Assembly (NCBI GenBank): GCA_030650025.1
Contig: JAUSEN010000016.1
Span: forward strand, 9,428-73,427
DNA: 64,000 nucleotides
Direction: 5' to 3'
DNA from: Candidatus Magasanikiibacteriota bacterium
GTDB lineage: Bacteria > Patescibacteriota > Patescibacteriia > Magasanikbacterales > GWA2-37-8
Shown here: in pieces, positions 7,479 to 60,228 of the stretch
Layout: each line of letters begins with the position of its first letter
How positions within the stretch are numbered: the first letter of the stretch is position 1
Position numbers and translations under genes: made by a program
Notes under the pieces: model-generated
Told to the model about the DNA's origin: nothing
The model's database searches: none
Seen by the model: the letters and a program-made list of their open reading frames with translations, nothing else

Positions 7479-9275
7479 ATGCATAATAGGGGGCAGAATG
7501 GTTTTAGCTTAGTTGAAGTCATCGTGGCGGTGGCCGTGTTTGTGCTGTTTGCTCTTGGGGTTTACGGCGCGATAAATAGTATTTTGGTGATAGCGCGCGA
7601 GTCGCGCCTTAAAGTTGCTGTGGCTGGCGTGTTAAGCCAGCAAATGGAAATAATTCGTAGCGTGCCATATGACAGCGTCGGGACAATTAATGGCCTACCG
7701 AGCGGGGTGCTTTCAGCTACTTCTACGATTACCGATGGCGGCTTGGTTTTTAATGTCATTACTACAGTTAGTTTTACGGATGATGCCTTTGATGGAACCG
7801 CGACCAGTACACCCGCTGACACCAACCCGGCGGATTATAAAGTGGTGACCGTGGCAGTTAGGTGCGCCTTTTGCGTAAGCCAACAGCCAGCGGTGGGGCG
7901 CACGTTCGTGGCTCCTCCGGTTTTCGAGGGAGCGCCCGAGACCGGGTCGCTCTTTATTCATGTGGTGGACGCGGAAGGCTGGCCAGTACCTGGCGCCAGC
8001 ATCAGTATCAGAAATGATTTTGTTAATCCGCCAGTCGCTGTTGACGCGGTGACGGACATGGACGGCTGGTATACGCTATTAAGCGCTCCGACCAGCACTC
8101 TTGGCTATAATATTACTACCACTAAAAGTGGTTATTCGCTGGATTATACAGCGGCCTCTTCTACAAACAACCCCGCGCCCACCAAATTGCCGGCCAGCGT
8201 TAGTGTGGGGGCGGCCACGACCATCAGTTTCGCGATTGATTTAACAGCGACTCTAAATGTTAAGACAGTGGACAATGTCTGCGCGGGGGTTAGCGCCGTG
8301 CCTTTTGCGCTCTCTGGCCAGAAGTTGATTGGTTCTTTGCCAATGGTTTATAAATTTTATCAAGATTTTACTACTGATGGCGGTGGCGACAAAACTTTCA
8401 GCGCGCTCGAGTGGGATAATTATTCCATAATGTTAAATAGCGCTAATTATGACGTGGCGGGCACGGTGCCGCTTCTGCCTTTCCCACTTTTACCGGGGGC
8501 AGCGCAGAACGCTACGGTCGTAGTGGCTCCGCATTCTAATAATTCTTTATTGGTAATTGTTAAGGACGCGGTAACGGGGTTGCCGTTGGCGGACGCCACG
8601 GCCAGGCTAACTAAGTCTGGTTACGACCAATCCCTAGTGACTGGCCTTGGGTTTGTGGGGCAAACGGATTGGTCGCTCGGGAGCGGGCAAGAAAGTTTTG
8701 CCAACGCGCAAAAATATTTTTCGGATAGCGGCAGCTTGAATGTGGCCGGATCACCGGGCGATGTGGTGCTTAAATCGAGCGGAAATAATTCTTTTTTATC
8801 GTCCGGGTGGCTCGAATCCTCTACGTTTGACGCGCATACCAGCGACATTGCTTACGCTCATTTATATATAACGCCCACGGCGCAACCGCATAAAGCGGGA
8901 GCGACCCCGCTTCAGTTTCAGCTGGCCACGAGCAATTCGAGCTCGCCGGCGGTGTGGAATTTTTTGGGTTCAGATGGTTCAGCCAATACTTTTTATACCG
9001 CTACGAATACGGTGATAACATCGCTCCACAACGACCAACGTTATTTGCGTTACCGCGCCTTTTTGTCCACTGTTGATAATAAGTATACGCCCATACTCTC
9101 GGATTTTTATTATACATTCACGAGCAGTTGTACGCCTCCGGGCCAGGCATTTTTTACTAATTTAGCGGCCGCCACCTACACTTTGACTGTTTCTAAAACC
9201 GGGTATCAAACTAACAGCGGCTCTTTGAATATAGTGGGCAATGGGCAGGCGGTAGTTAATTTATCGCCCAGCTAG
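7479..9275 (+). CDS. large type IV pilin-like protein (prepilin leader MHNRGQNG|FSLVEV)
   Basis: Class III signal peptide with G|FSLVEV and a hydrophobic alpha-1 helix, followed by about 560 aa of Thr/Ser-rich beta-rich sequence. An extended -10 (tggtatact) lies at about 7455-7463. Confidence 0.75.
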   Translation: MHNRGQNGFSLVEVIVAVAVFVLFALGVYGAINSILVIARESRLKVAVAGVLSQQMEIIRSVPYDSVGTINGLPSGVLSATSTITDGGLVFNVITTVSFTDDAFDGTATSTPADTNPADYKVVTVAVRCAFCVSQQPAVGRTFVAPPVFEGAPETGSLFIHVVDAEGWPVPGASISIRNDFVNPPVAVDAVTDMDGWYTLLSAPTSTLGYNITTTKSGYSLDYTAASSTNNPAPTKLPASVSVGAATTISFAIDLTATLNVKTVDNVCAGVSAVPFALSGQKLIGSLPMVYKFYQDFTTDGGGDKTFSALEWDNYSIMLNSANYDVAGTVPLLPFPLLPGAAQNATVVVAPHSNNSLLVIVKDAVTGLPLADATARLTKSGYDQSLVTGLGFVGQTDWSLGSGQESFANAQKYFSDSGSLNVAGSPGDVVLKSSGNNSFLSSGWLESSTFDAHTSDIAYAHLYITPTAQPHKAGATPLQFQLATSNSSSPAVWNFLGSDGSANTFYTATNTVITSLHNDQRYLRYRAFLSTVDNKYTPILSDFYYTFTSSCTPPGQAFFTNLAAATYTLTVSKTGYQTNSGSLNIVGNGQAVVNLSPS

Positions 9276-9343
9276 CAGCCGCGCTTCAAAGGTCGTTCGC
9301 GACATCGCGAGAGACACTGCGCGGCATGATTTTGTCAAATCAT

Positions 9344-9940
9344 ATGAAATCGAATCAGAGTGTCAGAGGATTTACTTTAATTGAGGTCATGGTGGCCGTG
9401 GCGATATCGGCTTTGTTTTTTAGCGCGGTGGCGGAGATTTTTTTGACAAGCTTTAAAACCGCCGGGCTGGTGAGCGATGAGCTCGAAGGCCAGAGTGGCG
9501 CGCGGCGCGCGGTGAATGATTTTGTGAGCCAATTTAGGCTGGCTTCATACTCGAGCGCGGGTGACTACCCCCTGAAGACAGCCAATATTAATGAAATTGT
9601 TTTTTACGCCAATATTGATAAAGATAACTTAATTGAAAAAGTGCGTTATTATTTAACGGACACTACTTTATACCGAGGGGTAACTAAACCGATTGGCAAT
9701 CCCTTGTCGTATGGGTCAGCGAGTGAAACAGCGGAGACATTGCTCGAGGGGGTGCGGCTGAATGGGAACCCTTTATTTACTTATTACCCGGCGGGTATTG
9801 CCGAGGCGCTAGTCCAGCCAGTTGATATCACGACCGTGCGCTTGGCGGGCATTTATTTGCGCGTGGATAAGAAGCCAACGGCGTCGCCGACAGCTTGGAG
9901 CGTGGCGGCCCGGGCGCAGATGCGGAATCTTAAAAATTAA
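9344..9940 (+). CDS. type IV prepilin/pseudopilin (start moved to ATG 9344: MKSNQSVRG|FTLIEV)
   Basis: A classical prepilin leader appears only if the start is taken at the CATATG ATG (9344). The track's upstream ATG at 9326 lies inside the conserved leader palindrome. Confidence 0.75.
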   Translation: MKSNQSVRGFTLIEVMVAVAISALFFSAVAEIFLTSFKTAGLVSDELEGQSGARRAVNDFVSQFRLASYSSAGDYPLKTANINEIVFYANIDKDNLIEKVRYYLTDTTLYRGVTKPIGNPLSYGSASETAETLLEGVRLNGNPLFTYYPAGIAEALVQPVDITTVRLAGIYLRVDKKPTASPTAWSVAARAQMRNLKN

Positions 9941-15012: not shown

Positions 15013-15136
15013 GATTCGTTGTCATTCCGACGACGAAGCCTGCCCGACACGCTGACGCGAGTCATGCGGGCGAGGAGGAATCTCTGTCATCATGACCGGA
15101 GAGAGATCTCTCCTGCGACGTCGAGATGACAAAATG
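15013..15136. repeat. structured ~115-bp intergenic repeat, copy 1
   Basis: A 69-nt stretch (tgtcattccgacgacgaagcctgcccgacacgctgacgcgagtcatgcgggcgaggaggaatctctgtc) is identical to 24433-24546, and the 3' arm ...gagagagatctctcctgcg.cgtcgagatgacaa is conserved; outer arms (gtcattccgacgacg / cgtcgtcgagatgac) are complementary. Confidence 0.65.
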
Positions 15137-15181: not shown

Positions 15182-15871
15182 ATGAGTTTGAAAAAATTAT
15201 TACTAGGGGCGAGCCTCGGAATGATGGTGTTAAGTTTGGCAATGCCAACCGCTCCGGCTCTAGCTGATAACAAGTTTTGTTTTTGCGGAACTGATTTAAA
15301 AAAATTTCCGGAGACGGGCGATTTGAATGATTCGCAAAAATATAATTCTTGGTGCTTTCCTAACCAGATCCCCGAAGAAAAGTGCACGGCTACAATTTAT
15401 AAAGCCGAGGCACGGGCCCAGGCGCAGTTAGTGAAGTGCGACGTTTTTACGACGCAACAACAATGCAAACAGGCGGAAACAGACTGGAATACGGCATTTA
15501 CCATACTCTATAATTCGCGCCAGAACGAGGTTTTTAAAAATACGATGCAGGGGTCGGGCGGGCGAGCCTTGCCGGATTGCGTTTTGAAGGACGATTTGAC
15601 CGAAGACTGCCGCGATATCACGGTCTTGGTCGCTTTGGTAGTTAATTATGGGCGGGTAAGCCTTGGCATTATTGGGGCGTTTGCTTTGTGCTTTTTTATT
15701 TACGGCGGGTTTATTTTAATAATGTCGAGCGGCAACCCGGAAAAGGTTAAGAAAGGCACGGACACGATGCTGGCCGCGCTAATCGGCCTTTTTATCGCCT
15801 TTGTGGCTTACTTATTTATCCGCTTTTTGGGCACGGCCATTGGCATCAAAGAGCAATTTAGGTTGTTTTAG
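15182..15871 (+). CDS. VirB2/TrbC-like pilin-module protein, paralog 1 (signal peptide + Cys-containing ectodomain + 2-TM C-terminal module)
   Basis: C-terminal ...FIYGGFILIMSSGNPEKVKKGTDTMLAALIGLFIAFVAYLF matches the module shared by 11 paralogs in this window. Confidence 0.6.
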   Translation: MSLKKLLLGASLGMMVLSLAMPTAPALADNKFCFCGTDLKKFPETGDLNDSQKYNSWCFPNQIPEEKCTATIYKAEARAQAQLVKCDVFTTQQQCKQAETDWNTAFTILYNSRQNEVFKNTMQGSGGRALPDCVLKDDLTEDCRDITVLVALVVNYGRVSLGIIGAFALCFFIYGGFILIMSSGNPEKVKKGTDTMLAALIGLFIAFVAYLFIRFLGTAIGIKEQFRLF

Positions 15872-15875
15872 TTTT

Positions 15876-16868
15876 ATGATGAAGAAGTTTTTGATTTTAT
15901 TAGCGGTGCTAGGAGCTTTTTTATTATACCGGCCTTCTCCGGCGCAGGCGGCGGCGTGTGTTTGCGACCAAGGGGTACAAGAAGGAGTTCCAACAAATAA
16001 CTCTTGCCTTACCTTGACCCAGAAAGGCAATTTGACTGGTTGCAAATGGGTAGAGCAGGAGACAAATTATTGCGTTTGTAAAACCGTCATTGCCTCGCCA
16101 GACGGCCTTAATGATGCGTCGTGCACGCAAAAACTGTATTATGCAAGCGCATTTTACCAGGGGAGATTACTAGGAATAGCTTGCGACGCTGACTTTAACC
16201 CCGCCCTGCAAGTTGGCTGTGATGATTTTTGCGAATCCTTGGGGCCCAATTCTAAAAAAATATATTGCGGCAACGAAGCGGGGAAAGATGAAGTCGATAA
16301 TACGCCGATTAACCAAGCCAAGGGCTGTGCGCCCATTCACTGCTGGTGTGGCAACCCGGCTGGGTATTGCACGCACGATACCGTAAAGCCCAATGGCGGC
16401 AGTTTTTACGACAGACCTTCTTGCAATAAATATTGCGATGATAAAAATGTGAATGGCGAGACGGGGTGGAAGTCCACTCACTGGGATGATAAGTATACTA
16501 ATTATTATAAAATTCCGGTGTCTAATAACGGCTGTTTGTACGAGATCCCCCGGCCAAAAATTAGTCCTTATGATTTTACCGGTAATATAAAGCTGAACGC
16601 CATAAACTTAAACCCGCTTACCAAATTTCGCGGACCCCAGGATTTTCTCGGCAATGCTATTCGCGTAATTCTGTCTCTCATTGGCGCCTTGGTGTTGGTC
16701 ATGTATATTTATGGCGGGCTCCTCTGGATGACAGCGGCGGGCAATAGCGAACAAACCGGCAAAGCCAAACAGATTTTGGTGTGGTCCACGCTCGGGGTGG
16801 CGGTCATGCTCTCGAGCTATGTCTTGGTAACATTCTTGTTTAGAGACGTGCTTAAGTTAACGATTTAA
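15876..16868 (+). CDS. pilin-module paralog 2 with ~280-aa Cys-rich ectodomain
   Basis: Start reassigned to MMKKFLILLAVLG (15876). About 26 Cys in the ectodomain; C-terminal IYGGLLWMTAAGNSEQTGKAKQIL... module. Confidence 0.6.
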   Translation: MMKKFLILLAVLGAFLLYRPSPAQAAACVCDQGVQEGVPTNNSCLTLTQKGNLTGCKWVEQETNYCVCKTVIASPDGLNDASCTQKLYYASAFYQGRLLGIACDADFNPALQVGCDDFCESLGPNSKKIYCGNEAGKDEVDNTPINQAKGCAPIHCWCGNPAGYCTHDTVKPNGGSFYDRPSCNKYCDDKNVNGETGWKSTHWDDKYTNYYKIPVSNNGCLYEIPRPKISPYDFTGNIKLNAINLNPLTKFRGPQDFLGNAIRVILSLIGALVLVMYIYGGLLWMTAAGNSEQTGKAKQILVWSTLGVAVMLSSYVLVTFLFRDVLKLTI

Positions 16869-16870
16869 TT

Positions 16871-17785
16871 ATGAAGAAATTTTTGGTAGTAGCGGTGATG
16901 GCACTCGGCATAGCCGGAATTTGGGGCGTAGCGACTGCCCGCGCGCAAGTAGGCTGCGCGGATAACCGCGGGTGCGCGCCAGGCGATGTTTGTATTAATA
17001 ATGTTTGCAAACCGGCAGTGGCCGATGGCCAGGTGTGTGTTAACAGCCAAGAGTGTTTGTCGGGGCGGTGCGTGAGTGGAATTTGCAAATCACCGGGCCA
17101 AGTGGGCGAGGCCTGTACCGAGGATGGCGAGTGTGTTACGAACAATTGTTTTGACGGTTTGTGCGGCCAGAAAGCCGAATGCAACGCGGATGGTGATTGC
17201 GGCGCGGGGAGGACGTGCACGCAGAATAAGTGCGTGGAAACATTTTCGACCGAGCCGCCGGCTCCGCCTCCGTCAGGGGATAGTGGCGGGCTAAGCCAGT
17301 GCCAAGATGAAAAAGGCTGCCCGGCTGGGCAAGTCTGTGTTGACCATGTCTGCCGCGTGCCTGTGGGGACTTCTGATTCTGGCAAACCGGTAGTAAATAG
17401 GTATTGTTTAAAAGACGACATGTGCCAGCCGATGGATCCGGTGAACGGCTGCCCGGCTGGCTGGGCGCCTAAACCCAAGTGCCCCTGCCCGAATAGCGAC
17501 AGCGGCGCGGAGTGCATTCCGCTCGAGAATCCGCTCGCCGGCAACACCGTGGATATTTTTGGAATCTTCGGCCGGATCTTGCGCGTGGCGCTTGGCTTAA
17601 TTGGTTCCCTTACGCTTTTAATGCTGGTGTGGGGAGGGTTCCAATGGATGATGTCGGGCGGGAGCCCGGAGCGCATCAAGAAGGGTACGGACACGATGCT
17701 CTGGGCCGCGATTGGAGTGGTACTAGTATTCGCCAGCTATTTCATTTTGAGTAATTTTGTAGACTATTTAACTGGCGTTCAATAG
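16871..17785 (+). CDS. pilin-module paralog 3 with five tandem 4-Cys modules
   Basis: Repeats such as CADNRGCAPGDVCINNVC, CVNSQECLSGRCVSGIC and CTEDGECVTNNCFDGLC; C-terminal VWGGFQWMMSGGSPERIKKGTDTML module. Confidence 0.6.
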   Translation: MKKFLVVAVMALGIAGIWGVATARAQVGCADNRGCAPGDVCINNVCKPAVADGQVCVNSQECLSGRCVSGICKSPGQVGEACTEDGECVTNNCFDGLCGQKAECNADGDCGAGRTCTQNKCVETFSTEPPAPPPSGDSGGLSQCQDEKGCPAGQVCVDHVCRVPVGTSDSGKPVVNRYCLKDDMCQPMDPVNGCPAGWAPKPKCPCPNSDSGAECIPLENPLAGNTVDIFGIFGRILRVALGLIGSLTLLMLVWGGFQWMMSGGSPERIKKGTDTMLWAAIGVVLVFASYFILSNFVDYLTGVQ

Positions 17786-17790
17786 GAATT

Positions 17791-17801
17791 TGTGGTATAA
17801 T
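17791..17801 (+). promoter_or_regulatory. extended -10 promoter (tgtggtataat) for paralog 4
   Basis: TGnTATAAT lies about 55 nt upstream of the strong SD gggaggtga and ATG 17854. Confidence 0.4.
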
Positions 17802-17853
17802 AGATTTTAGCTATGTTGACGTTATTATTAAACATAGGAAGGGAGGTGACACT

Positions 17854-18252
17854 ATGATTAAAATGCAGAAATTTCTCGCTCCAATCATGATGTCTTTAAC
17901 ACTCGTTAGCGCCATGCCAGCGATCGCGGCGACAGACACTCTTAAGGATACGGATCTCTTACCGCCGAAGATAGGAGAAACGACCGGCCTTGGCACTGGT
18001 GATATCCGTTTGACCGTCGCGAAAATTATTCGCGTCGCTATGGGCCTCCTTGGTATCGTGGCCGTGGTTATTATCTTGATTGGCGGCTTTACTTGGATGA
18101 CCGCGGGCGGCAACGAAGAAAAGGTAGGCGAAGCCAAGAAATGGATTTTCGCCGGTATTATTGGTCTCGCGATTATTCTTTCCGCTTACGCGATTGCCAG
18201 CTTCGTTATTACGCAATTGGTGGACGCGACTACGCAAGCCGGAGTCATTTAG
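17854..18252 (+). CDS. pilin-module paralog 4 (short form)
   Basis: Signal peptide, short ectodomain, ILIGGFTWMTAGGNEEKVGEAKKWIFAGIIGLAIILSAYAIASFV. Confidence 0.65.
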   Translation: MIKMQKFLAPIMMSLTLVSAMPAIAATDTLKDTDLLPPKIGETTGLGTGDIRLTVAKIIRVAMGLLGIVAVVIILIGGFTWMTAGGNEEKVGEAKKWIFAGIIGLAIILSAYAIASFVITQLVDATTQAGVI

Positions 18253-18413
18253 TAGTCTCCAATTTATTAAGTTTCCATTGGTTAGCAGGGGGAGAAGAGA
18301 AACGACTAACTTGGTCAGCTTGCCAAGCCGAGCGCAGATAGAGATATATGCACTTCGCTTGGTAAGCTACCACCCCCTGCTCTGCCAATAAATTATTTTG
18401 AATTACGAACAGT

Positions 18414-18833
18414 ATGGCGAAAATATTTTTTAAAAAATCTGCTTGGGCGGGTATAGCGGCGGGCATCGCACTGCTCACAGCTTTAGTGGTTCCAGCAGAT
18501 TCAGCCAGGGCAATTTCGGATTTGGAATTGGGGCTGGATTATGGCACGTTTACCGGCTTAAGCTATAGCGACCCGAGAGCCGTGGCCGCGGCCATTATTC
18601 GGGTGGCTCTCGGGCTCCTCGGCACCGTGGCGTTAATAATTATTTTGATTGGCGGATATACTTGGATGACCGCGGGCGGCAACGAAGAAAAAGTAGAAGA
18701 AGCCAAAAAATGGATTAAAGCGGGCGTGATTGGCCTCGCGATTATACTTTCGGCTTTCGCGATTACCAGTTTTGTGGTGCAACAGTTGGTGCGAGCCACG
18801 CAAGAGGCGAGTAACGTAAATTTGGCGCAATAA
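18414..18833 (+). CDS. pilin-module paralog 5 (short form)
   Basis: ILIGGYTWMTAGGNEEKVEEAKKWIKAGVIGLAIILSAFAI; closely related to paralog 4. Confidence 0.65.
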   Translation: MAKIFFKKSAWAGIAAGIALLTALVVPADSARAISDLELGLDYGTFTGLSYSDPRAVAAAIIRVALGLLGTVALIIILIGGYTWMTAGGNEEKVEEAKKWIKAGVIGLAIILSAFAITSFVVQQLVRATQEASNVNLAQ

Positions 18834-18839
18834 TTTTTT

Positions 18840-19463
18840 ATGTTTAAAGTTAAAGCGTTAAGCGGAATTAGTGCCTTAATTTTAAGCTGGTCATTTTTAG
18901 TTCCCCTCCCGGCCTTGGCTGACAGCTATGGCATTAGCCAAACGGCAGACCAAGTAAACATTGAGAACCCAAATTTATTGCCAAAAACCGTGGCGGGAGA
19001 GTCCACGGTTCCAGAAGTTATTGGCGCGATTATTGGGTACGCACTGTCCCTCGTTGGCATAGTTTTTTTCGGCCTGATGCTTTACGCGGGCGTGCGCTGG
19101 ATGATTGCCATGGGCAACACGGAGGACGTGGAAAAGGCCAAGCAAACTTTGGAAGCGGCCGCCATTGGTTTAGTAATAGTTTTGGCGGCTTATGTTTTGA
19201 CTAGCGAGATATTTAAGGTTTTGAGCCCAGCCACCGCGCCGACGGATTCGGCGCAGTTAGACGCCAAGTTAGGGCAGAAATTAGGCGAGCCAGTCGATTG
19301 CACTAACGGCCAGAAGGAATTACTAGAGTCCGATGTGGATTGCGGGGGAATTTGCTCTAAGAAATGCGAAGCCGGAAAGCATTGTTCCGAAGGCAAGGAT
19401 TGCCTGTCCGGAGCTTGCCTCGCGTCTCGAGATCCAAACAATCCCGGTTTTATTTGCCAATAA
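18840..19463 (+). CDS. pilin-module paralog 6 with Cys-rich domain C-terminal to the TM hairpin
   Basis: [40 protein letters not shown] followed by [40 protein letters not shown]. Confidence 0.6.
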
Positions 19464-19481
19464 TTGTGAGTAGCGCTTTAT

Positions 19482-19886
19482 ATGATTATGATAAGAAAAG
19501 TTTTAAATAATATTTTTTTAACCGGGACGCTTTTGCTCTCTGGTTTAATTTTTACTAATTTTGTTTTTACTAATTTTGTTAGCGCGGTTGGTTTGTATGA
19601 CGCCGGCGGGAAGTTGGAACAGGCGGTCGGGGCGGATTCGCAGGTAGGTTTGCGCGGTGATTTAACCTCCACTATTACCACGGTAGTAACGGCAGTGTTA
19701 GCCGTTGTGGGCACAGTTTTTTTGCTTCTCACGATTTACGCTGGCATTCTTTGGATGACCGCGGCGGGTGCGGAAGACCAAATAGAAAAGGCGCAAAATA
19801 TAATTAAAGCCACGGTAATTGGTTTGTTTATAACCATGGGCGCGTACGCGATTACGGCTTTTGTGGGCGGGCGGTTAAGCGGCTAA
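19482..19886 (+). CDS. pilin-module paralog 7
   Basis: IYAGILWMTAAGAEDQIEKAQNIIKATVIGLFITMGAYAITAFV. Confidence 0.65.
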   Translation: MIMIRKVLNNIFLTGTLLLSGLIFTNFVFTNFVSAVGLYDAGGKLEQAVGADSQVGLRGDLTSTITTVVTAVLAVVGTVFLLLTIYAGILWMTAAGAEDQIEKAQNIIKATVIGLFITMGAYAITAFVGGRLSG

Positions 19887-19888
19887 GT

Positions 19889-20419
19889 ATGAGACGAGCC
19901 CAAGTAATTTTAATGCTGGTGGCGGTAGGCGGTATCACTTTTGGGGCGGTTACTTTTGGACAGGCTTTAGGGTTTCAGGATTCGGTTGGCCTGGTAACGA
20001 ACGCGGTGGGGCCAGCGACTAAGGTTGGTTTGGAAGGAAATTTAACCACGTCAATTGCGACAGCAGTTAAAATAGCGCTCGCCTTAGTCGGAACAATTTT
20101 TTTGGGTCTCACGGTTTACGCCGGGATTCTGTGGATGACGGCATCGGGAGCGGAAGACAAAATCGAAAAAGCGCAAGGCATAATTAAAGCCACGGTGATA
20201 GGCCTCGGCATCACTTTTGGAGCCTACGCGATTACAGCTTTTGTGGGCAGTAAATTAGGGGGCAGTGGCGCCCCTACCCCGAGCCAAGTTATTTCTTGCA
20301 CGGAAGCGCCCAATAATGGCAACTGCGTTACCGACAATGGCGCCCCTTGCCCGGGCGGCACCAAAGAAATCCAGGGGACTGATTGCGCCCCAGGCAAGCT
20401 CTGTTGCGCCCCGCTCTAA
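19889..20419 (+). CDS. pilin-module paralog 8 with short C-terminal Cys-rich tail
   Basis: VYAGILWMTASGAEDKIEKAQGIIKATVIGLGITFGAYAITAFV followed by ...CTEAPNNGNCVTDNGAPCPGG...CAPGKLCCAPL. Confidence 0.6.
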   Translation: MRRAQVILMLVAVGGITFGAVTFGQALGFQDSVGLVTNAVGPATKVGLEGNLTTSIATAVKIALALVGTIFLGLTVYAGILWMTASGAEDKIEKAQGIIKATVIGLGITFGAYAITAFVGSKLGGSGAPTPSQVISCTEAPNNGNCVTDNGAPCPGGTKEIQGTDCAPGKLCCAPL

Positions 20420-20451
20420 AAATGAAAAAATTATTTTAAATAGTAAAGGGT

Positions 20452-20958
20452 ATGATTAAAAATTTTTTAGTAAGTTTTATAATGATATTAGCCCTGATGC
20501 CCGGGGTCGCGTTGGCCGCGCCTAATATTGGTTTGGGTGAAGATGGGTTAGCGACAGGCGTCGCGGCGGGCGCGGGGTATGCCCCAGCCACGGACACGAC
20601 GCTGTCGGAATCGGTGGGTAAGGTCATTCGGGTGATTTTGTCCATGGTGGGAACAATTTTTCTGGCGCTAACGGTTTACGCCGGAATTCTGTGGATGACC
20701 GCGGCGGGAGCGGAAGACCAAATAGAAAAGGCGCAAAATATTATCAAGGCCGCGTCGCTTGGTTTAATAATCGTGATTGCCGCTTATGGCATAACCACTA
20801 TAGTGGTTGCGGCCATGACATTTGCCTCGCAACCAAATACCGGAGCAACTGTCGGGGGCAAGCCCAGCCAATCATTTTGGCAACAGCAAGGGCAGTATTG
20901 GCAAGACTGGGCTAACAATTGGAAAATTTCTACCAAGAGTATGTTTGGAATTAAATAG
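20452..20958 (+). CDS. pilin-module paralog 9
   Basis: VYAGILWMTAAGAEDQIEKAQNIIKAASLGLIIVIAAYGITTIV; about 85-90% nt identity to paralogs 7 and 8 across the module. Confidence 0.6.
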   Translation: MIKNFLVSFIMILALMPGVALAAPNIGLGEDGLATGVAAGAGYAPATDTTLSESVGKVIRVILSMVGTIFLALTVYAGILWMTAAGAEDQIEKAQNIIKAASLGLIIVIAAYGITTIVVAAMTFASQPNTGATVGGKPSQSFWQQQGQYWQDWANNWKISTKSMFGIK

Positions 20959-20962
20959 ATCG

Positions 20963-21052
20963 CGATTGCGCCGCGCTTCAAAGGACCCGCCCGCCTCGCT
21001 ACGCGAAGCGTTGCGGGCAGGCACTGCGCGGCACGATTTTGTTAAATCGCAT
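20963..21052 (+). promoter_or_regulatory. conserved structured 5' leader (variant B) ending in palindrome CGATTTTgttAAATCG + CATATG
   Basis: Shares gccgcgcttcaaagg...cactgcgcggca(c/t)gattt with leaders at 9278-9343 and 22911-22961; contains a nested GC palindrome homologous to 54606-54645. Confidence 0.55.
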
Positions 21053-21526
21053 ATGAAAAAACTTTTTGCGTATCAACTAGTGGCAGTATTCGTAGCGTTC
21101 CTCGCTTTGTCTTTTGTGGTAATAACCCCGGCGCGGGCGGAGGACACCAGCTCTGATATCCGGAAACAACTCGAGGCGGCGGGTGGCACGCAAGGCGCGA
21201 ATTATGGGGAAGCGGTTGACCCGCGAGTCACCGCGGCTTTGATTATTCGGGCGATGCTCGGCATGACTACGATTATTTTGATTATTTTAAATATTTACGC
21301 GGGAATCACTTGGATGACAGCCGGCGGAAACGAGGAAAAGGTGGACAAAGCCAAAACGACAATTAGAAATTCCACTATCGGACTGATTATTGTTTTGTCC
21401 GCTTACTCGATAACTGTTTTTGCCACTTACATCGCGCGGGGCCAGCAGTTTGGCCTCGGCGGCGGGCCTAACGCTTTATCGCGCGGTTTAGGCAATTTCT
21501 TCCAGTCGCGGCAGGGTCCGAATTAA
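21053..21526 (+). CDS. pilin-module paralog 10 (start moved to CATATG ATG 21053: MKKLFAYQLVAVFVAF...)
   Basis: The track ORF begins at 20822 but its first 77 aa are the translated GC-rich leader. A plausible signal peptide begins at 21053. C-terminal IYAGITWMTAGGNEEKVDKAKTTI module. Confidence 0.6.
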   Translation: MKKLFAYQLVAVFVAFLALSFVVITPARAEDTSSDIRKQLEAAGGTQGANYGEAVDPRVTAALIIRAMLGMTTIILIILNIYAGITWMTAGGNEEKVDKAKTTIRNSTIGLIIVLSAYSITVFATYIARGQQFGLGGGPNALSRGLGNFFQSRQGPN

Positions 21527-21554
21527 TTTAAGAAATAGAAAAGAGAGAAATTTT

Positions 21555-21590
21555 GATTTAAAAAAATGGCTCCCGAGAGTGGGAGCTTTT
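21555..21590. terminator. bidirectional intrinsic terminator (gctccc-gagagt-gggagc between A and T tracts)
   Basis: aaaaaaatggctcccgagagtgggagcttttttat. Confidence 0.6.
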
Positions 21591-21607
21591 TTATCAAGAT
21601 AACTAAA

Positions 21608-22315
21608 ATGCAGATTTCAGTAATTATACCAGCCTACAACGAAGAAAAAACTCTAGCCAAAACGCTGGAGTCTTTAATAAAGCAAACCACCGATCGCGCG
21701 TTTGAAGTGATTGTCGTAAATAACGCCTCGACGGATAAAACGAGAGTAGTCGCCGAGTTTTTTTTAGATAAATTAGATTTAAAAATAATAGACGAGCCGA
21801 ATAAAGGGCGCGGGGCGGCGCGAGCCGCCGGGTGCGCGTCTGCCGCCGGAGAAATTTTTTTATCAACGGACGCGGATACGATTTTGCCTAGCAATTGGAT
21901 TGATGTTTTGATAAAGCCAGTTCATTCCGGGGTGGTTGGCGTGACTGGTACCGCGAAAATAGAGGATTGTTCATTTTTTGTTAATATTTTTTTCAAACTT
22001 TTTCAACCGGCGTTAACTAAAATTTCGCGGTGGTTACTTGGCTATTATTGGCTGGCTGGTTTTAGCTCGAGCGTGACGAGGGGTGCGTACGAGAAAGCGG
22101 GCGGTTTTGACAAAGCGCTCAATTCTTTAGAAGATACGGACCTAGCGAGAAGAGTTTCTCGGCAGGGCAAAATTGTGTGTGTTTGGAATTGTCCGGTAGT
22201 CTTTTCTGGCCGGCGATTTAAAAAGGGGGTGTTGCGCGGGCTGTTATCGTACCTGCCGCCGTTTATTATGTTTTTGTTTAAGTCGCGGCGTGTTAATTTA
22301 TCAGATATTCGCTAG
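21608..22315 (+). CDS. family 2 glycosyltransferase
   Basis: MQISVIIPAYNEEKTL...VIVVNNASTDKT...DADT: GT2 signature. Confidence 0.75.
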   Translation: MQISVIIPAYNEEKTLAKTLESLIKQTTDRAFEVIVVNNASTDKTRVVAEFFLDKLDLKIIDEPNKGRGAARAAGCASAAGEIFLSTDADTILPSNWIDVLIKPVHSGVVGVTGTAKIEDCSFFVNIFFKLFQPALTKISRWLLGYYWLAGFSSSVTRGAYEKAGGFDKALNSLEDTDLARRVSRQGKIVCVWNCPVVFSGRRFKKGVLRGLLSYLPPFIMFLFKSRRVNLSDIR

Positions 22316-22506
22316 TATAAACCCTGCACCACAAGGGTGCAGGGCACCCTGAACTCTTGTAGTTCAGGGTGAACCGTAAAATGTAAGTTGATGATTAAAA
22401 TAGTTGGGTGCCCAATGGGAATTGTCTCCCTACGGGAGATCCCCCGTAGGGGGAAACCCATTTTGTACCAACTATAAAAAAAGTCGGATTGTTTATTATT
22501 GAATTG

Positions 22507-22580
22507 GGGTGCCCAATGGGAATTGAACCCATATTGTCGGTACCACAAACCGACGTAATAACCATTATACCATGGGCACC
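22507..22580 (-). tRNA. tRNA-His(GUG)
   Basis: Reverse complement folds as acceptor ggtgccc/gggcacc, anticodon stem tcggt/accga with loop ttGTGgt, T arm gggttcaattccc. Confidence 0.7.
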
Positions 22581-22638
22581 ATGAGTAAAATCCGCTCTAG
22601 TATAGCGCCAAAATTGCTTTTAGTCAATGTGAGGGAGT

Positions 22639-22712
22639 GTCTCCTCGAGAGGAATCGAACCTCTATACTTAGCTTAGAAGGCTAATGCTCTATCCATTGA
22701 GCTACGAGGAGA
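22639..22712 (-). tRNA. tRNA-Arg(UCU)
   Basis: Reverse complement: acceptor tctcctc/gaggaga, D arm gtagctcaatggatagagc, anticodon stem ttagc/gctaa with loop ctTCTaa, T arm gaggttcgattcctc. Confidence 0.75.
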
Positions 22713-22910
22713 AAAAATAGCTTATCCCGCCACAGCGGGACCCCGCCTCGCGGCGGTGGGAAGGCTACTGTTTTATCCGCTCCGACGCCCCGCTTTGCGG
22801 GGGTCGGAGCCCCGACTTTACGTCGGGGTTAAACTATGGGATCAAGTGGCTCTATGGTAATCAATTTGGCCTTAAAAATCAAGTTATGGTATAATTTAAG
22901 AGTAACTAAT

Positions 22911-22961
22911 ATTTGCGCCGCGCTTCAGAGGACGTTGCGCGGCATGATTTCGTCAAATCAT
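22911..22961 (+). promoter_or_regulatory. conserved structured 5' leader (variant C) with palindrome TGATTTcgtcAAATCA + CATATG, preceded by an extended -10 (tggtataat at ~22888)
   Basis: ttgcgccgcgcttcagaggacgttgcgcggcatgatttcgtcaaatcatATG. Confidence 0.55.
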
Positions 22962-23324
22962 ATGTACAAGAAGATAAAAGTACTGTCGACTGTTTTTATA
23001 ACTTTTTTGGTTACTTGGCCAATGACAGCCCTGGCGCAATATGGTTTGAACGAAGCGGCCGGGAAAATGGGGTTTGATAGAAGCAAGAATGTTTACGGAG
23101 TGATTAGCCTCGTGGTGGGGGCAGCGTTGGCGTTTACCGGACTAGTGTTTTTTGGAATGATGATGTACGCTGGTGTGCGCTGGATGACCGCGCGCGGCAA
23201 CGAAGATTTGGCAGAGAAGGCCAAACAAGCCCTCGCGAATTCTACGATTGGTTTTGTAATCGTGGCGCTTTCTTACGCCCTGACGCGGTTTGTGTTTGGA
23301 GCGCTTAATTTGCCGACATTTTAA
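22962..23324 (+). CDS. pilin-module paralog 11 (start moved to ATG 22962: MYKKIKVLSTVFITFLVTWPMTALA)
   Basis: C-terminal MYAGVRWMTARGNEDLAEKAKQALANSTIGFVIVALSYALTRFV; the track ORF starts upstream inside the leader. Confidence 0.6.
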   Translation: MYKKIKVLSTVFITFLVTWPMTALAQYGLNEAAGKMGFDRSKNVYGVISLVVGAALAFTGLVFFGMMMYAGVRWMTARGNEDLAEKAKQALANSTIGFVIVALSYALTRFVFGALNLPTF

Positions 23325-24432: not shown

Positions 24433-24546
24433 CTGTCATTCCGACGACGAAGCCTGCCCGACACGCTGACGCGAGTCATGCGGGCGAGGAGGAATCTCTG
24501 TCCGATTGACGAGAGAGATCTCTCCTGCGTCGTCGAGATGACAACA
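24433..24546. repeat. structured ~115-bp intergenic repeat, copy 2
   Basis: See copy 1 (15013-15136). It begins immediately after the NYN stop codon. Confidence 0.65.
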
Positions 24547-24645
24547 AAATAAAAAATTTATTCACGAAGTTTGGGCAAGGACACAGAGGCCATTCACTAG
24601 AATTGGTCTTCAGCTCTTGCCGGAACTTCGATAAATCAAGAACAT

Positions 24646-26965: not shown

Positions 26966-27047
26966 GGGCAAGTGGCGGAATTGGCATACGCGCATGGCTT
27001 AGGACCATGTCCCGTAAGGGTTGAGGGTTCGACTCCCTCCTTGCCCA
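26966..27047 (+). tRNA. tRNA-Leu(UAG), type II
   Basis: Acceptor gggcaag/cttgccc, anticodon stem catgg/ccatg with loop ctTAGga, long variable arm, T arm gagggttcgactccctc. Confidence 0.8.
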
Positions 27048-27235
27048 CAAACACACAAGATACGAGTTCGAGTCCCCGCCCGAAACGCCTCCGGCGTAGC
27101 CGGGGCGGGCGGGTCTCCCGCGGCACAAAAGCAATATATTGTCTAAGCACGAATAAATTGCTATAATAGACACAGGGTGCGCCAAGCGCGCTCATGTTAA
27201 TTCGCGATCTCTTTTAGAATATAAACAAATAGAAT

Positions 27236-32310: not shown

Positions 32311-32348
<38 letters not shown>

Positions 32349-33172
32349 TAAAGAAAGCGTAACAGCTCACTGGTCAAGAGTTTTCGCGCCGAAAATGTAC
32401 CGGGGCTAAATATGGTACCGAAGCTGCGAATTGGTAGATCCTCCGGGATTTACCTCTGGTAAAGGAGCGTTGGTAGCTGCGCTGAAGCCATAGCCGCGAG
32501 GCGTGGTGGAGTGCTACCAAGTGAGAATGCAGGCATGAGTAACAATAAGGGAAGTGAGAATCTTCCCCGCCGAAAATCCAAGGTTTCCTGGGCAACGAGA
32601 CTCGACCCAGGGTTAGTCGATCCTAAGGCCAGGCCGAAAGGCGTAACCGATGGAAGAGCAGGTTAATATTCCTGCACTTGGTATAGTTTGTTTGTTAGTG
32701 CGCATAGTGAAGCTGACAGCGTGTTTTGAATATACACGTTTCTTTACCCCGACGTGAAGTCGGGGCAGGGACGAAGATGAAGCCTTCGGGTGGAGTCAAC
32801 TGTCGGGGACGCTGTGCCTAGAAAAGCTAATAAACGTTAAGCTATATCAAACCGTACCGTAAACCGACACAGGTAGGTGAGTCGAGAAGACTAAGGCGTA
32901 CGAGAGAACCCTCTTTTAGGAACTCTGCAATACAGCGGCCGTAACTTAGGGATAAGGCCCGCCCCGATGTAAAAATCGGGGTTACAACAAAAGACGCACT
33001 GCGACTGTTTACCAAAAACACAGCTCCCTGCAAAAGCGCAAGCTGAAGTATAGGGAGTGATGCCTGGCCAGTGTCAGAACGTTAAGGCGAGAGGTTATCC
33101 GGTCATCCGACCGGAGAAGCCTTGAACTGAAGCGCTGATGAACGCCGGCGGTAACTATAACCGTCCTAAGGT

Positions 33173-33408: not shown

Positions 33409-33430
33409 AGCGAAATTCCTTGTCGGGTAA

Positions 33431-34573: not shown

Positions 34574-34636
34574 GTACGATGTCGGCTCATCGCATCCTGG
34601 GGGTGAAGAAGCTCCCAAGGGTTTGGCTGTTCGCCA

Positions 34637-34688
<52 letters not shown>

Positions 34689-54191: not shown

Positions 54192-55277
54192 ATGCAATAC
54201 CAAATTTTAGAAGTAAACCCAGTTTCCGGTTATGAATTGTTAGATTCGGGTGATGGCGAAAAATTAGAGCGCTATGGCGATGTTGTAGTTGTACGGCCAG
54301 ACCCACAGGCCTTATGGCGCAAGAAGCTGCCGGAGAGCGAGTGGCAAAAAGCCAACGCTTATTTTAAACCCCGCATCACCATAAACCACAAGGGTTTATG
54401 GCAAACAAGGGTGCAGGGCGAGCGTGATAGTAAGAGCGCAGAGTGGCAGACGCGCAGCGAGATTCCAGCACGGTGGCCAATTGAATTTGGGGGTTTAAAG
54501 TTTTGGATTAAACTTTCGGCTTTTAAGCATACGGGGTTATTTCCGGAACAGCTTCCGAATTGGGTTTGGCTGCAAGAAAAAATACGATTGGCGAGACCCC
54601 ACCCCCGCCCGACTTCGCTACGGCGAAGCCGTTGCGGGCGGGCTGCCCTCCCCTTTGCGAAGGGGATGGGAAGCGATACCCCCTCTGTCGCAACGGAGGG
54701 GGAAGGGGGAGGACTGGCGCGCGTTTTAAATTTATTTGGCTATACCGGTGGGGCGACGCTCGCTTGCGCGCAGGCTGGCGCCAGTGTTGTCCATGTGGAT
54801 GCTAGCAAGTCCGCCATTGGATGGGGGAGGGATAACGCGGTGCTTTCCGGCTTAGATAAAAAACCAATTCGTTGGATACTAGACGATGCCGCGACGTTTG
54901 TGCGTCGCGAAATTAAGCGCGGCAACAAATATGATGGCATCATTATGGATCCGCCGGCTTTTGGACACGGACCTAACCGAGAACTTTGGAAAATAGAAGA
55001 TCATTTTTTACCGCTTCTTGAGGATTGTAAAAAAATATTAAGCAGAGAGCCTCTGTTTTTTTTGGTGAATGGCTATGCCTCGGGGTATTCGGCCGTGGCT
55101 TATGAAAATAGTTTAGGTGATTTGTTAAAACACACCCCCCGGCCCCCTCTTGTTAGAGGGGGAGGCGAAAAAGATAATCTAGGAAATATAGAAATTGGTG
55201 AATTGACGATTGCCGAGAGCGGGAGTGGCAGAATTTTGCCAGCTGGTATTTTCGCGCGCTGGAGCGCCCCGCAGTAA
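54192..55277 (+). CDS. RlmI/RlmK-like SAM-dependent rRNA methyltransferase carrying in-frame palindromic insertions
   Basis: NLFGYTGGATLACAQAGA...VDASKSAI (motif I) and DPPAFG (motif IV). GC-rich low-complexity inserts at 54377-54418, 54593-54718 and 55131-55168. Confidence 0.65.
   Translation: MQYQILEVNPVSGYELLDSGDGEKLERYGDVVVVRPDPQALWRKKLPESEWQKANAYFKPRITINHKGLWQTRVQGERDSKSAEWQTRSEIPARWPIEFGGLKFWIKLSAFKHTGLFPEQLPNWVWLQEKIRLARPHPRPTSLRRSRCGRAALPFAKGMGSDTPSVATEGEGGGLARVLNLFGYTGGATLACAQAGASVVHVDASKSAIGWGRDNAVLSGLDKKPIRWILDDAATFVRREIKRGNKYDGIIMDPPAFGHGPNRELWKIEDHFLPLLEDCKKILSREPLFFLVNGYASGYSAVAYENSLGDLLKHTPRPPLVRGGGEKDNLGNIEIGELTIAESGSGRILPAGIFARWSAPQ
54593..54718. repeat. nested GC-rich palindromic mini-element (in-frame inside CDS)
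   Basis: gagaccccaccc...ccctcccctttgcgaagggga.gggaa...ccccctc.gtcgcaacggagggggaagggggagg; related to 61947-62033 and 20985-21020. Confidence 0.65.
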
Positions 55278-60156: not shown

Positions 60157-60228
60157 CACAGATTACCTGCCCGCAATGCTTCGCATAGCGAGGCGGGCGG
60201 GCGCAGATTCATTTGGATTAAACAGATT

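What the first reader, a model, noticed from the sequence alone, without database searches (positions are those of the whole stretch)
15013..15136. Two copies of a ~115-bp highly structured intergenic repeat (second copy 24433-24546)
A 69-nt core is identical between the copies, followed by a short variable stretch and a conserved 3' arm containing the perfect palindrome gagagatctctc. The outer arms (gtcattccgacgacg / cgtcgtcgagatgac) are complementary, so the element folds into a long stem with internal GC hairpins. Both copies sit directly after stop codons (SBP gene; NYN gene) and upstream of the next gene. The variable centre with conserved pairing arms is MITE/REP-like, or it could be a small RNA gene family.
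Basis: seen in the sequence. Interest (0 to 1): 0.5.

Follow-up and report, generated by a model that had tools for sequence, protein, structure and literature searches.

The report
Nested palindromic mobile repeats, CPR bacterium
The two ~110-nt repeats are copies of a small hairpin-forming, apparently selfish DNA element that is common in ultra-small groundwater (CPR) bacteria and carries a second 36-nt hairpin element nested inside it; relatives of both elements sit in frame inside essential genes, as the palindromic elements of Rickettsia do.

Summary
There are two copies (15020-15131 and 24434-24543, + strand): 69 nt are identical, the 33-nt right arms differ at 1 position, the 8-10-nt centre is variable, and the flanks are unrelated. 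It is a composite. (i) Two inverted ~33-nt hairpin units (TGTCAT-NNN-loop-N'N'N'-ATCTCTGTC) form a REPIN/MITE-like element. A 19-mer of the left unit hits 77 metagenome contigs, mostly Hainich groundwater; 50 are distinct full elements, and some are nested in one another. Unit stems covary strongly (99% paired). There is no target-site duplication. (ii) Exactly 36 nt is inserted in the loop of the left unit. It matches 35/36 a hairpin whose exact 28-nt core the one genome scan found in Saccharibacteria, Nomurabacteria and Moranbacteria MAGs. There the hairpin lies in frame in GltX, RpoB, RNase J and HtpX, and possibly RecA and AtpB. Orthologous sites show filled and empty states: the NYN-pnp spacer, HtpX (exactly 12 aa) and a YchF loop. 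No Rfam family, terminator or promoter consensus fits, and orientation relative to genes is not fixed. Best reading: a non-autonomous selfish palindromic repeat, RPE/REPIN-like. The mobilising enzyme is unknown. No description was found in the searchable literature.

The parts
15020..15131 (+). Copy 1, whole two-unit palindromic element (112 nt), between the SBP_bac_1 gene and the first T4SS_pilin gene
15020..15088 (+). Copy 1 left unit, TGTCAT-TCC-GACGACGAAG[insert]GA-GGA-ATCTCTGTC
   Evidence: covariance model R1, 39.1 bits, E 1e-9; canonical uninterrupted unit TGTCATTCCGACGACGAAGGAGGAATCTCTGTC seen 29 times in metagenome loci
15039..15074 (+). Copy 1 nested 36-nt hairpin A (CCTGCCCGACACGCTGACGCGAGTCATGCGGGCGAG), inserted between GAAG and GAGGAAT of the unit
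   Evidence: comparison with the canonical unit; 35/36 identical to the 36-mer found in 16 loci, 15 of them labelled as CPR MAGs
15089..15098 (.). Copy 1 variable central spacer (ATCATGACCG)
15099..15131 (-). Copy 1 right unit, inverted, subtype CTC/GAG (TGTCAT-CTC-GACGTCGCAGGA-GAG-ATCTCTCTC on the - strand)
   Evidence: R1, 40.1 bits
24434..24543 (+). Copy 2, whole element (110 nt), between the NYN gene and the pnp leader
24434..24502 (+). Copy 2 left unit with nested hairpin
   Evidence: R1, 39.1 bits
24453..24488 (+). Copy 2 nested 36-nt hairpin A, identical to that of copy 1
24503..24510 (.). Copy 2 variable central spacer (CGATTGAC)
24511..24543 (-). Copy 2 right unit, inverted, subtype CTC/GAG
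   Evidence: R1, 40.8 bits
30798..30837 (-). Solo unit of the same family (TGTCAT-TTC-GACCCGCCTAGAGCGGGGA-GAA-ATCTCTGTC), with no partner unit; upstream of the 23S rRNA gene
   Evidence: best R1 hit in the window, 47 bits; sequence
20986..21021 (-). 36-nt sister hairpin (family B, same CCYGCCCG/CGGGCRGG stem), interrupting a repeated leader-like motif whose uninterrupted version is at 22913-22964
   Evidence: (I1)
60166..60201 (+). 36-nt sister hairpin (family B), intergenic between a 318-aa hydrophobic ORF (59200-60156) and an ORF with an ATP-binding P-loop motif (60229-60957); neither ORF was scanned against a family library
27075..27113 (+). 39-nt hairpin with the same stem, splitting a sequence that resembles the 3' end of a tRNA, just after tRNA 26966-27047
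54604..54642 (+). 39-nt hairpin with the same stem, in frame inside the SAM-methyltransferase ORF 54192-55277

Best explanation
The repeat is a non-autonomous, selfish palindromic DNA element of a large family found in Patescibacteria (CPR). The window comes from a Candidatus Magasanikbacteria MAG.

Anatomy (shown). The element has two ~33-44-nt hairpin units, TGTCAT-NNN-GA..loop..-N'N'N'-ATCTCTGTC. They lie in inverted orientation with the TGTCAT ends outside, around a short free spacer. The whole can fold either as one long hairpin or as two local hairpins.

Nesting (shown). The window variant has a second-order passenger. A 36-nt GC-rich hairpin ('hairpin A') is inserted exactly in the apical loop of the left unit. 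Hairpin A belongs to a separate family with an exact core in several CPR classes. Both window copies share this insert and its private G-to-A change. So the composite was copied as one piece to a second locus after the nesting event.

Mechanism (inferred). Copies are made and inserted in trans by an enzyme encoded elsewhere. Insertion leaves no target-site duplication, and the conserved feature is a base-paired hairpin next to constant sequences. I therefore favour a single-strand, hairpin-recognising route of the IS200/IS605-RAYT type ('peel and paste') over a classical DDE cut-and-paste. This step is inferred, at about 0.35.

Side effects (inferred). Both families lack stops in at least one frame, so copies survive in frame inside genes as well as between genes. 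The two window copies lie right after stop codons. They are therefore probably co-transcribed and may act as 3' stem-loops on the SBP and NYN transcripts.
For: Family and distribution.
- A 19-mer of the left unit hits 77 metagenome contigs (79 sites). They contain 50 distinct full elements of 58-165 nt (most 79-110 nt) with the same plan.
- Model R1 finds 186 units in those 433 kb, 5 units in the window, and 2 further elements of other subtypes 5-6 kb upstream of the window in the same genome.

Defined polarity.
- Units no more than 60 nt apart are arranged +/- 59 times and -/+ once.

Nesting.
- Elements are found nested inside the spacers of other elements (L022, L026, L035, L042, L049, L065, L085).

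Structure under selection.
- On 51 distinct units, 99.0% of cells are paired.
- 79 cells are changed on both sides, against 24.1 +/- 5.3 in shuffles (0/500 reach the observed value).
- Slid controls give 9-56% paired.
- Eight complementary triplet types occur.

Filled and empty sites.
- The S15-NYN-pnp synteny is conserved. L096 and L098 have no element there. L095 carries a different subtype at a position 11 nt away.
- Most of the 120 best YchF homologs lack the insert carried by L046 and a few relatives.

Hairpin A as a separate insert.
- Its exact 28-nt core is in 16 loci from Saccharibacteria, Nomurabacteria, Moranbacteria and other MAGs.
- On the sense strand it always reads PARHADASHAGG. 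On the antisense strand it always reads RPHDSRQRVG(Q/R)A.
- In HtpX, 'ADP|KG' becomes 'ADP-RPHDSRQRVGQA-KG', exactly 12 aa or 36 nt. At least 28 of the 120 best homologs are filled. Close relatives (83% identity) are empty.

Other points.
- No target-site duplication in 51 insertions or at the HtpX site.
- A short-read contig of the same sample ends about 30 nt past the NYN stop, that is, inside the repeat. This is the usual behaviour of multi-copy sequence.
Against: - No transposase was found. None of 148 ORFs within 1.5 kb of elements has a transposase or RAYT domain among the 25 most frequent families. No pair of units flanks a gene.
- Movement was not observed directly. All evidence is comparative.
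- Different family members occupy the same site in different lineages (HtpX, the YchF loop, the NYN-pnp spacer). This could also arise by in-situ divergence with compensatory changes, or by gene conversion, rather than by repeated insertion.
- Copy number in this genome is modest (4 elements plus 1 solo unit in about 73 kb).
- R1 found no unit in 150 kb of other CPR loci, so the family is patchy.
- The two window copies have nearly identical arms but very different centres. A simple recent copy-paste does not explain this.
Confidence: 0.8

Rival explanations
1. It is primarily a functional RNA element: a small RNA gene family, or a cis-acting 3'-UTR stem-loop (stabiliser, processing site or terminator) kept for the host's benefit.
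For: Both window copies lie directly after stop codons, in the sense orientation, and fold very stably as RNA. Stems covary. There is a weak sense bias among relatives: 14 sense to 6 antisense in tandem gene contexts, and about 10 to 2 for copies inside ORFs. REP and Correia elements are known to affect the stability of neighbouring mRNAs (PMC2229807).
Against: No Rfam match. No promoter or terminator consensus and no U-run after the stem. Relatives occur antisense, between divergent genes and inside coding sequences. Orthologous sites lack the element or hold another subtype. Nearly all variable pairs are Watson-Crick with almost no G-U, so the structure is equally good on both DNA strands. 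Nested copies are hard to reconcile with a dedicated RNA gene.
Confidence: 0.1
2. The family is ancient and vertically inherited. Copies diverge in place through compensatory changes and are homogenised by gene conversion, so there is no true transposition.
For: Different subtypes occupy the same site in related genomes (HtpX; YchF; the NYN-pnp spacer). Degenerate copies exist (P0139, P0137). No transposase was found.
Against: The two window copies sit at unrelated loci, share 101 of 102 arm positions and share a private nested insert. Elements are nested within elements. An identical 36-mer sits in genes whose flanks are only about 70-80% identical, and in different genes in different CPR classes. 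Close relatives have precise empty sites.
Confidence: 0.07
3. It is a remnant of a simple segmental duplication.
For: There are only two full copies in the 64-kb window.
Against: Similarity ends exactly at the element termini. There are 77 metagenome contigs with the same unit and 16 loci in reference genomes with the nested hairpin. More elements lie in the same genome outside the window.
Confidence: 0.01
4. It is a host recognition site, for example a protein-binding, DNA-uptake or recombination signal, whose constant motifs TGTCAT and ATCTCTGTC are the functional part.
For: The constant motifs flanking a variable but paired stem are invariant across subtypes. CPR bacteria are thought to rely on DNA uptake (my own knowledge).
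Against: The density is far too low for an uptake signal: 5 units in 64 kb, and none in 150 kb of other CPR loci. Copies inside coding sequence and nested copies point to spread rather than placement.
Confidence: 0.02

Closest known systems
REPINs (REP doublets forming hairpins), mobilised by RAYT tyrosine transposases (Bertels and Rainey; PMC3337134)
   Same: Two short imperfect palindromes lie in inverted orientation around a poorly conserved spacer. The whole folds into a long hairpin of about 90 nt. Solo units look like decayed remnants. No target-site duplication is expected for an IS200/IS605-like mechanism.
   Different: REPINs are extragenic, whereas relatives of this element sit in frame inside genes. 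REPINs are not hybrids of two REP groups, whereas here the two units usually differ in subtype (TCC with CCC or CTC). No RAYT was found. No GTAG-type head; the constant ends are TGTCAT and ATCTCTGTC. The host is a CPR lineage.
Rickettsia palindromic elements (RPE; Ogata et al. 2000, as reviewed in PMC2229807)
   Same: They are 100-150-nt palindromic repeats found between genes and in frame inside conserved protein genes. One frame is kept open, and the insert lands in a variable loop of the protein.
   Different: Sequence similarity to RPEs was not tested. The host group is different and free-living or episymbiotic. The element here is built of two modular units and accepts nested inserts. The 36-nt hairpin A is much shorter than any RPE and is identical across classes.
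Classical bacterial MITEs (Correia/NEMIS, RUP, ERIC; PMC2229807, PMC3184786)
   Same: Under 200 nt, non-coding on their own, with terminal inverted repeats and a long stem-loop transcript. Some have open frames fused to genes.
   Different: Most MITEs have TA at the termini and make target-site duplications. Here there are none in 51 insertions. The termini are TG..CA, and the flanking bias is Y before and R after the element.
Neisseria dRS3 / NIME mosaic repeats and E. coli BIMEs (from my own knowledge, not checked here)
   Same: The unit core ATTCC-N-GGAAT resembles dRS3 (ATTCCC-N8-GGGAAT). The architecture is a modular mosaic of small palindromic units.
   Different: Different constant flanks, host and arrangement. 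Membership was not tested.

Membership tests
Classical MITE (derived from a DDE transposon) | Terminal inverted repeats and size under 200 nt, with no coding capacity of its own | tested here: met
   Inverted 33-44-nt units with TGTCAT ends; most full elements are 79-110 nt
Classical MITE (derived from a DDE transposon) | Target-site duplication flanking the insertion (often TA) | tested here: not met
   51 distinct insertions: no consistent duplication, only Y at -1 (47/51) and R at +1 (49/51). The HtpX empty and filled DNA comparison shows none for hairpin A
Classical MITE (derived from a DDE transposon) | A parent autonomous IS with the same terminal repeats | tested here: inconclusive
   No unit pair flanks a gene in 647 kb of held DNA. 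No transposase among the 25 most frequent families in 148 neighbouring ORFs. Whole genomes could not be searched
REPIN / REP | Two REP-like imperfect palindromes, inverted, separated by a variable spacer and forming a hairpin | tested here: met
   59 +/- pairs against 1 -/+ pair at 60 nt or less; folds; stem covariation
REPIN / REP | Extragenic location | tested here: not met
   12 of 51 relatives lie inside long ORFs, including YchF, phosphoglucomutase, UvrC and TsaD. The two window copies themselves are intergenic
REPIN / REP | A cognate RAYT (HUH/Y1 transposase) gene flanked by the repeats | tested here: inconclusive
   Not seen among the neighbouring ORFs scanned. A RAYT is single-copy per genome, so it could lie outside the DNA held
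REPIN / REP | Both REPs of a doublet belong to one REP group (no hybrids; PMC3337134) | tested here: not met
   The left TCC unit is paired with CCC, CTC, TTC, TCT or CCT units. In the window it is TCC with CTC
Rickettsia palindromic elements (RPE) | A palindromic repeat inserted in frame in conserved protein genes as well as between genes | tested here: met
   YchF aligns full-length to PDB 1jal with a 17-residue gap under the element peptide. HtpX has a 12-aa insert with empty relatives. This holds for family relatives, not for the two window copies
Rickettsia palindromic elements (RPE) | Sequence relationship to RPE-1 to RPE-8 and a host in Rickettsiales | not tested
The host here is Candidatus Magasanikbacteria
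Any Rfam RNA family | Score at or above the family's gathering threshold | tested here: not met
   No hit at gathering thresholds. The best sub-threshold hits have E 0.16-3.7 and are implausible (eukaryotic or viral miRNA families, an archaeal snoRNA, a CRISPR repeat)
Intrinsic terminator | A GC-rich stem followed by a T-run | tested here: not met
   The scan reports no site at either element, and no T-run follows them on either strand

The most novel reading that the evidence does not exclude
CPR bacteria harbour an undescribed, multi-tier system of hairpin mini-elements. It comprises a ~90-nt two-unit element, 36-39-nt GC hairpins with a common CCYGCCCG/CGGGCRGG stem, and possibly a third CCATAAACC..GGTTTATGG family. 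These elements insert into each other, into RNA-gene fragments and in frame into essential genes, without target duplication. The hairpins examined so far are 36 or 39 nt, multiples of three. They are exchanged across class-level lineages: the 28-nt search core and its flanks give an identical or near-identical 36-mer in Saccharibacteria, Nomurabacteria and Moranbacteria. This implies a hairpin-specific mobilisation machinery that has not been identified and may be new, and a steady source of small peptide insertions in the reduced proteomes of these organisms.
Probability: 0.35. Interest if true: 0.8.

Novelty: new variant of a known kind. Interest (0 to 1): 0.6.

Why it matters
Protein-coding palindromic repeats have been treated as a peculiarity of Rickettsia and Wolbachia (PMC2229807). 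This work suggests the same phenomenon is common in the Candidate Phyla Radiation. These are bacteria with tiny genomes, where selfish DNA is not expected to be tolerated, and the inserts lie in core genes (RpoB, GltX, RNase J, YchF, TsaD, UvrC, HtpX, possibly RecA).

Practical consequences:
- These repeats break short-read assemblies.
- They create spurious or extended ORFs and odd low-complexity peptides in CPR protein catalogues.
- They could serve as markers of recent horizontal exchange between CPR lineages that share a habitat.

The family also gives a concrete route to an unknown mobilising enzyme in organisms that cannot yet be manipulated genetically.

Tried and rejected
- Rfam at gathering and at permissive thresholds: nothing credible.
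- Promoter and terminator scans: nothing at the elements.
- More copies in the window by blastn-short, nhmmer and a covariance model: only the two copies and one solo unit.
- Viral-contig scans with the hairpin-A core, the outer arms and a degenerate unit pattern: 0, 0, and one solo unit plus one chance hit. The elements are not a visible phage feature.
- Target-site duplication: none.
- Transposase near the elements: none among the frequent Pfam families of 148 neighbouring ORFs. No unit pair flanks a gene.
- 'All four elements of this genome share one orientation': rejected as meaningless. The element is quasi-palindromic, and orientation can only be defined within a subtype.
- Orientation of the 19-mer subtype against local GC skew: 23 to 11, p = 0.058, so inconclusive.
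- The two direct copies flank the T4SS-pilin/S15/NYN block 9.4 kb apart. A composite transposon was rejected, because relatives keep the same gene order without the elements.
- Literature: six full-text searches with element sequences, peptides and topic words found no description in CPR. The library lacks most subscription papers, so this is not proof of novelty.
- Look-up of the window's last large ORF, to extend the contig downstream: not on record.

Full report
**1. The observation**

Two copies of one sequence lie at 15020-15131 and 24434-24543 on the + strand.
- The first 69 nt are identical.
- The last 33 nt differ at one base.
- The 8-10 nt between them differ at four positions plus a 2-nt indel.
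- Similarity ends exactly at TGTCAT... and ...ATGACA, and the flanks are unrelated.

A 30-mer of the core occurs twice against none expected. No third full copy is in the window. Both copies fold far better than shuffled controls, as RNA (z -5.1 and -5.9) and as DNA (z -3.8 and -4.7).

Copy 1 follows the stop of a solute-binding-protein gene by 22 nt. Copy 2 follows the stop of a NYN-domain gene by 1 nt. The next genes are a T4SS pilin and polynucleotide phosphorylase.

The window comes from a Candidatus Magasanikbacteria MAG: the PNPase is 100% identical to an NCBI MAG protein on a 130-kb contig. The long 23S rRNA gene with a group I intron fits a CPR origin.

**2. The element is a composite**

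It returned 16 loci in Saccharibacteria, Nomurabacteria, Moranbacteria and other Patescibacteria MAGs, plus one MAG labelled Bdellovibrionales. These loci share only a 36-nt hairpin, CCYGCCCGACACGCTGACGCGAGTCATGCGGGCGGG. They share neither the outer arms nor the second hairpin.

It returned 77 contigs, most from Hainich groundwater filter fractions. There the sequence continues as TGTCATTCCGACGACGAAGGAGGAATCTCTGTC, without the 36-mer. A 10-30-nt variable spacer follows, and then an inverted unit of the same design, for example GACAGAGATCCCTCGTCGG[small GC hairpin]CCTCGCTCGGGATGACA.

*The window element.* It is therefore a two-unit element with exactly 36 nt inserted between GAAG and GAGGAAT in the loop of its left unit. 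The insert is 35/36 identical to the 36-mer shared by the CPR loci. With the insert removed in silico, the remaining 74 nt fold into a single long hairpin (z -5.9).

**3. The unit**

I collected units with a pattern that fixes only the constant flanks. This gave 63 distinct sequences. The design is TGTCAT-NNN-GA-[loop or small GC hairpin]-N'N'N'-ATCTCTGTC.

On an alignment of 51 of them (49 from that list plus the two right units of the window copies), the counts are:
- The five-pair stem plus one inner pair is paired in 99.0% of cells.
- 79 cells are changed on both sides, against 24.1 +/- 5.3 in shuffles (0 of 500 reach the observed value).
- Slid controls give 9-56% paired.

Eight complementary triplet types occur: TCC/GGA, CCC/GGG, TTC/GAA, CTC/GAG, CCT/AGG, TGC/GCA, GTT/AAC and TCT/AGA. 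Almost all variable pairs are Watson-Crick, so the constraint is equally compatible with a DNA hairpin.

A covariance model of the unit (R1) gave these results:
- Five units in the window: the four of the two copies, and a solo unit at 30798-30837.
- 186 units in the 433 kb of metagenome loci.
- None in 150 kb of CPR loci that had been fetched for other reasons.
- Two more two-unit elements of other subtypes 5-6 kb upstream of the window in the same genome.

Neighbouring units 60 nt or less apart are arranged +/- 59 times and -/+ once. The element therefore has defined outer ends.

**4. Evidence that it spreads**

(a) *Recent copying.* The two window copies are at unrelated loci and share a private nested insert, including its G-to-A change.

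(b) *Nesting.* Elements are nested in the spacers of other elements in at least seven loci.

(c) *An orthologous intergenic site.* The gene order S15-NYN-pnp is conserved in relatives.
- A relative with 78% PNPase identity has a 23-nt spacer.
- A relative with 77% identity has 128 nt, with the conserved pnp leader and no element.
- The closest relative (85%) carries a different subtype (stem ATTGC/GCAAT). It ends 3 nt from the leader, whereas the window element ends 14 nt from it.

(d) *Assembly behaviour.* A short-read contig of the same sample breaks inside the repeat.

Fifty-one distinct insertions show no target-site duplication. There is only a pyrimidine before and a purine after the element, plus AT-rich flanks.

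**5. Copies inside genes**

*The two-unit family.* Twelve of 51 relatives lie within long ORFs. Translation shows intact genes with the element read through in frame: YchF, phosphoglucomutase, UvrC, TsaD, a ComEC-like protein and others. In the sense orientation the frame is always VIPTTKEESLS...DRDPSS..SLGMT. The YchF protein aligns end to end with the H. influenzae structure 1jal, with a 17-residue gap under the element peptide. Most of its 120 best homologs lack the insert. A few carry other subtypes in the same loop.

*Hairpin A.* It behaves the same way. It is spanned in frame by open reading frames in GltX, RpoB, RNase J and HtpX. It also lies in open frames at the start of RecA and at the C-terminal end of an AtpB-like ORF, where it may fall outside the true coding region. 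It reads PARHADASHAGG on one strand and RPHDSRQRVG(Q/R)A on the other.

In HtpX, the 120 best homologs split into two forms: 'ADP|KG...' and 'ADP-RPHDSRQRVGQA-KG...'. This is a clean 12-residue difference. Degenerate copies exist in some lineages, and other hairpins with the same stem occupy the same site in others. At the DNA level, GAC C^CC AAA becomes GAT C[36 nt]CG AAA, with no duplication.

*Sister hairpins in the window.* The window holds four sister hairpins with the same stem, of 36 or 39 nt:
- One is in frame in a methyltransferase gene.
- One splits a sequence resembling the 3' end of a tRNA.
- One interrupts a repeated leader-like motif whose uninterrupted copy lies 1.9 kb away.

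**6. What it is not**

- No Rfam family fits.
- No promoter or terminator consensus lies at the elements.
- Relatives occur in both orientations in tandem gene contexts (14 to 6), between divergent genes (6) and inside genes.

A dedicated small-RNA gene or a terminator is therefore unlikely to be the primary explanation. The two window copies are probably still part of the upstream transcripts and may stabilise them. A segmental duplication is excluded.

**7. Mechanism**

*Shown:* the anatomy, the stem covariation, the defined ends, nesting, filled and empty sites, in-frame survival, and the absence of target duplication.

*Inferred:* mobilisation in trans by a hairpin-recognising enzyme. I favour a single-strand HUH/Y1 route, as proposed for REPINs and RAYTs (PMC3337134), for three reasons:
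- No duplication is made.
- The conserved feature is a hairpin next to constant motifs.
- Loops such as GCGAAGC are known to form very stable DNA mini-hairpins (my own knowledge).

No such enzyme was found. The 148 ORFs within 1.5 km of elements... correction: within 1.5 kb of elements are ordinary housekeeping genes. Orientation against GC skew is only weakly biased (23 to 11, p = 0.058).

An alternative is in-situ divergence with gene conversion. It would explain why different subtypes share sites. It does not explain the two near-identical window copies, the nesting, or an identical 36-mer in different genes of different classes.

**8. Unexplained**

The arms of the two window copies differ at 1 of 102 positions, yet the 8-10-nt centre differs at most positions. 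Three explanations are possible:
- The loop of the palindrome is hypermutable, or is revised by hairpin-processing nucleases.
- The centre is re-made at each transposition.
- The arms are homogenised by conversion.

I could not distinguish these.

**9. Comparison with known kinds**

The architecture is closest to REPINs. The behaviour inside genes is closest to Rickettsia palindromic elements. The general class is bacterial MITE-like repeats (PMC2229807, PMC3184786, PMC3337134).

It fails defining features of classical MITEs: no target duplication and no TA ends. It also fails defining features of REPINs: it is not strictly extragenic, its unit pairs are hybrids of subtypes, and no RAYT was seen. 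I therefore file it as a new variant of a known kind, not as a member of either family.

Six full-text searches found no description of such elements in CPR. The library is incomplete, so novelty is probable but not proven.

**10. Verdict**

It is a nested pair of palindromic selfish elements belonging to two families that are widespread in CPR bacteria.
- Confidence in the selfish-repeat reading: 0.8.
- Confidence in the specific single-strand mechanism: about 0.35.
- Interest: 0.6.

Noticed in passing
window 22318-22347, 30880-30964, 54368-54419: A third hairpin family (CCATRMACC-ACAAG-GGTKYATGG, partly nested in CCATGCACC..GGTGCATGG). It lies upstream of the 23S rRNA gene, near tRNAs, and in frame inside the methyltransferase ORF 54192-55277 (peptide ...ITINHKGLWQTRVQGE...).
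   Followed up: partly
window 9274-9346, 20966-21053, 22913-22964, 57125-57158: A repeated leader- or promoter-like motif, TTGCGCCGCGCTTCAAAGGAC..TGCGCGGCATGATTTTGTCAAATCATATG, ahead of several genes. The copy at 20966-21053 is split by a 36-nt family-B hairpin, which gives a filled and an empty comparison within the window.
   Followed up: partly
window 27056-27135; also L003 and L005: A sequence resembling the 3' end of a tRNA (GAGTTCGAGTC^TCTCCCGCGGCACA) lies directly after tRNA 26966-27047 and is split in its T-loop region by a 39-nt hairpin. In L003 and L005, hairpin A itself sits in comparable tRNA-like fragments. These may be remnants of integration sites.
   Followed up: no
window 15089-15098 vs 24503-24510: The central spacer of the two otherwise near-identical copies differs at 4 positions plus a 2-nt indel, while 102 nt of arms differ once. 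The loop is either hypervariable or rebuilt.
   Followed up: partly
window 31093-34959: The 23S rRNA gene spans 3867 nt against a 2925-position model and has a group I intron at 33419-33631. Other insertions are likely.
   Followed up: no
window 15182-23324: An array of genes with T4SS_pilin domains (four of the ORFs were scanned and matched). They share internal repeats (WMTAGGNEEKV..AK region), lie between the two element copies and are interrupted by tRNA genes at 22508-22711.
   Followed up: partly
window 24555-24640; L095 100-200; L098 2925-3000: A conserved structured leader upstream of pnp (AAGTTYGGGCRAGGACMCAGAGGCC...TCTTGCCGGAACTTC) is shared with relatives. It may be an autoregulatory leader. 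The element was inserted just upstream of it.
   Followed up: no
L102 3500-3591 and 4697-4799 (same genome, 5-6 kb upstream of the window start): Two further two-unit elements of other subtypes (TTC+TCC and TCC+TTC) lie next to PemK and ParE toxin genes.
   Followed up: yes
L001 3070-3105: Hairpin A lies in frame in a GltX-like ORF of a MAG labelled Bdellovibrionales, the only host not labelled as CPR. This is either mis-binning or cross-phylum transfer.
   Followed up: no
L101 (P0140) and P0214, HtpX site: Hairpins with the same stem but different loops (39 nt RPLSPERSDGGQA; 30 nt RPTERSFGQA) occupy exactly the site that hairpin A occupies in other HtpX genes. This suggests a hotspot, or loop exchange between family members.
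   Followed up: partly
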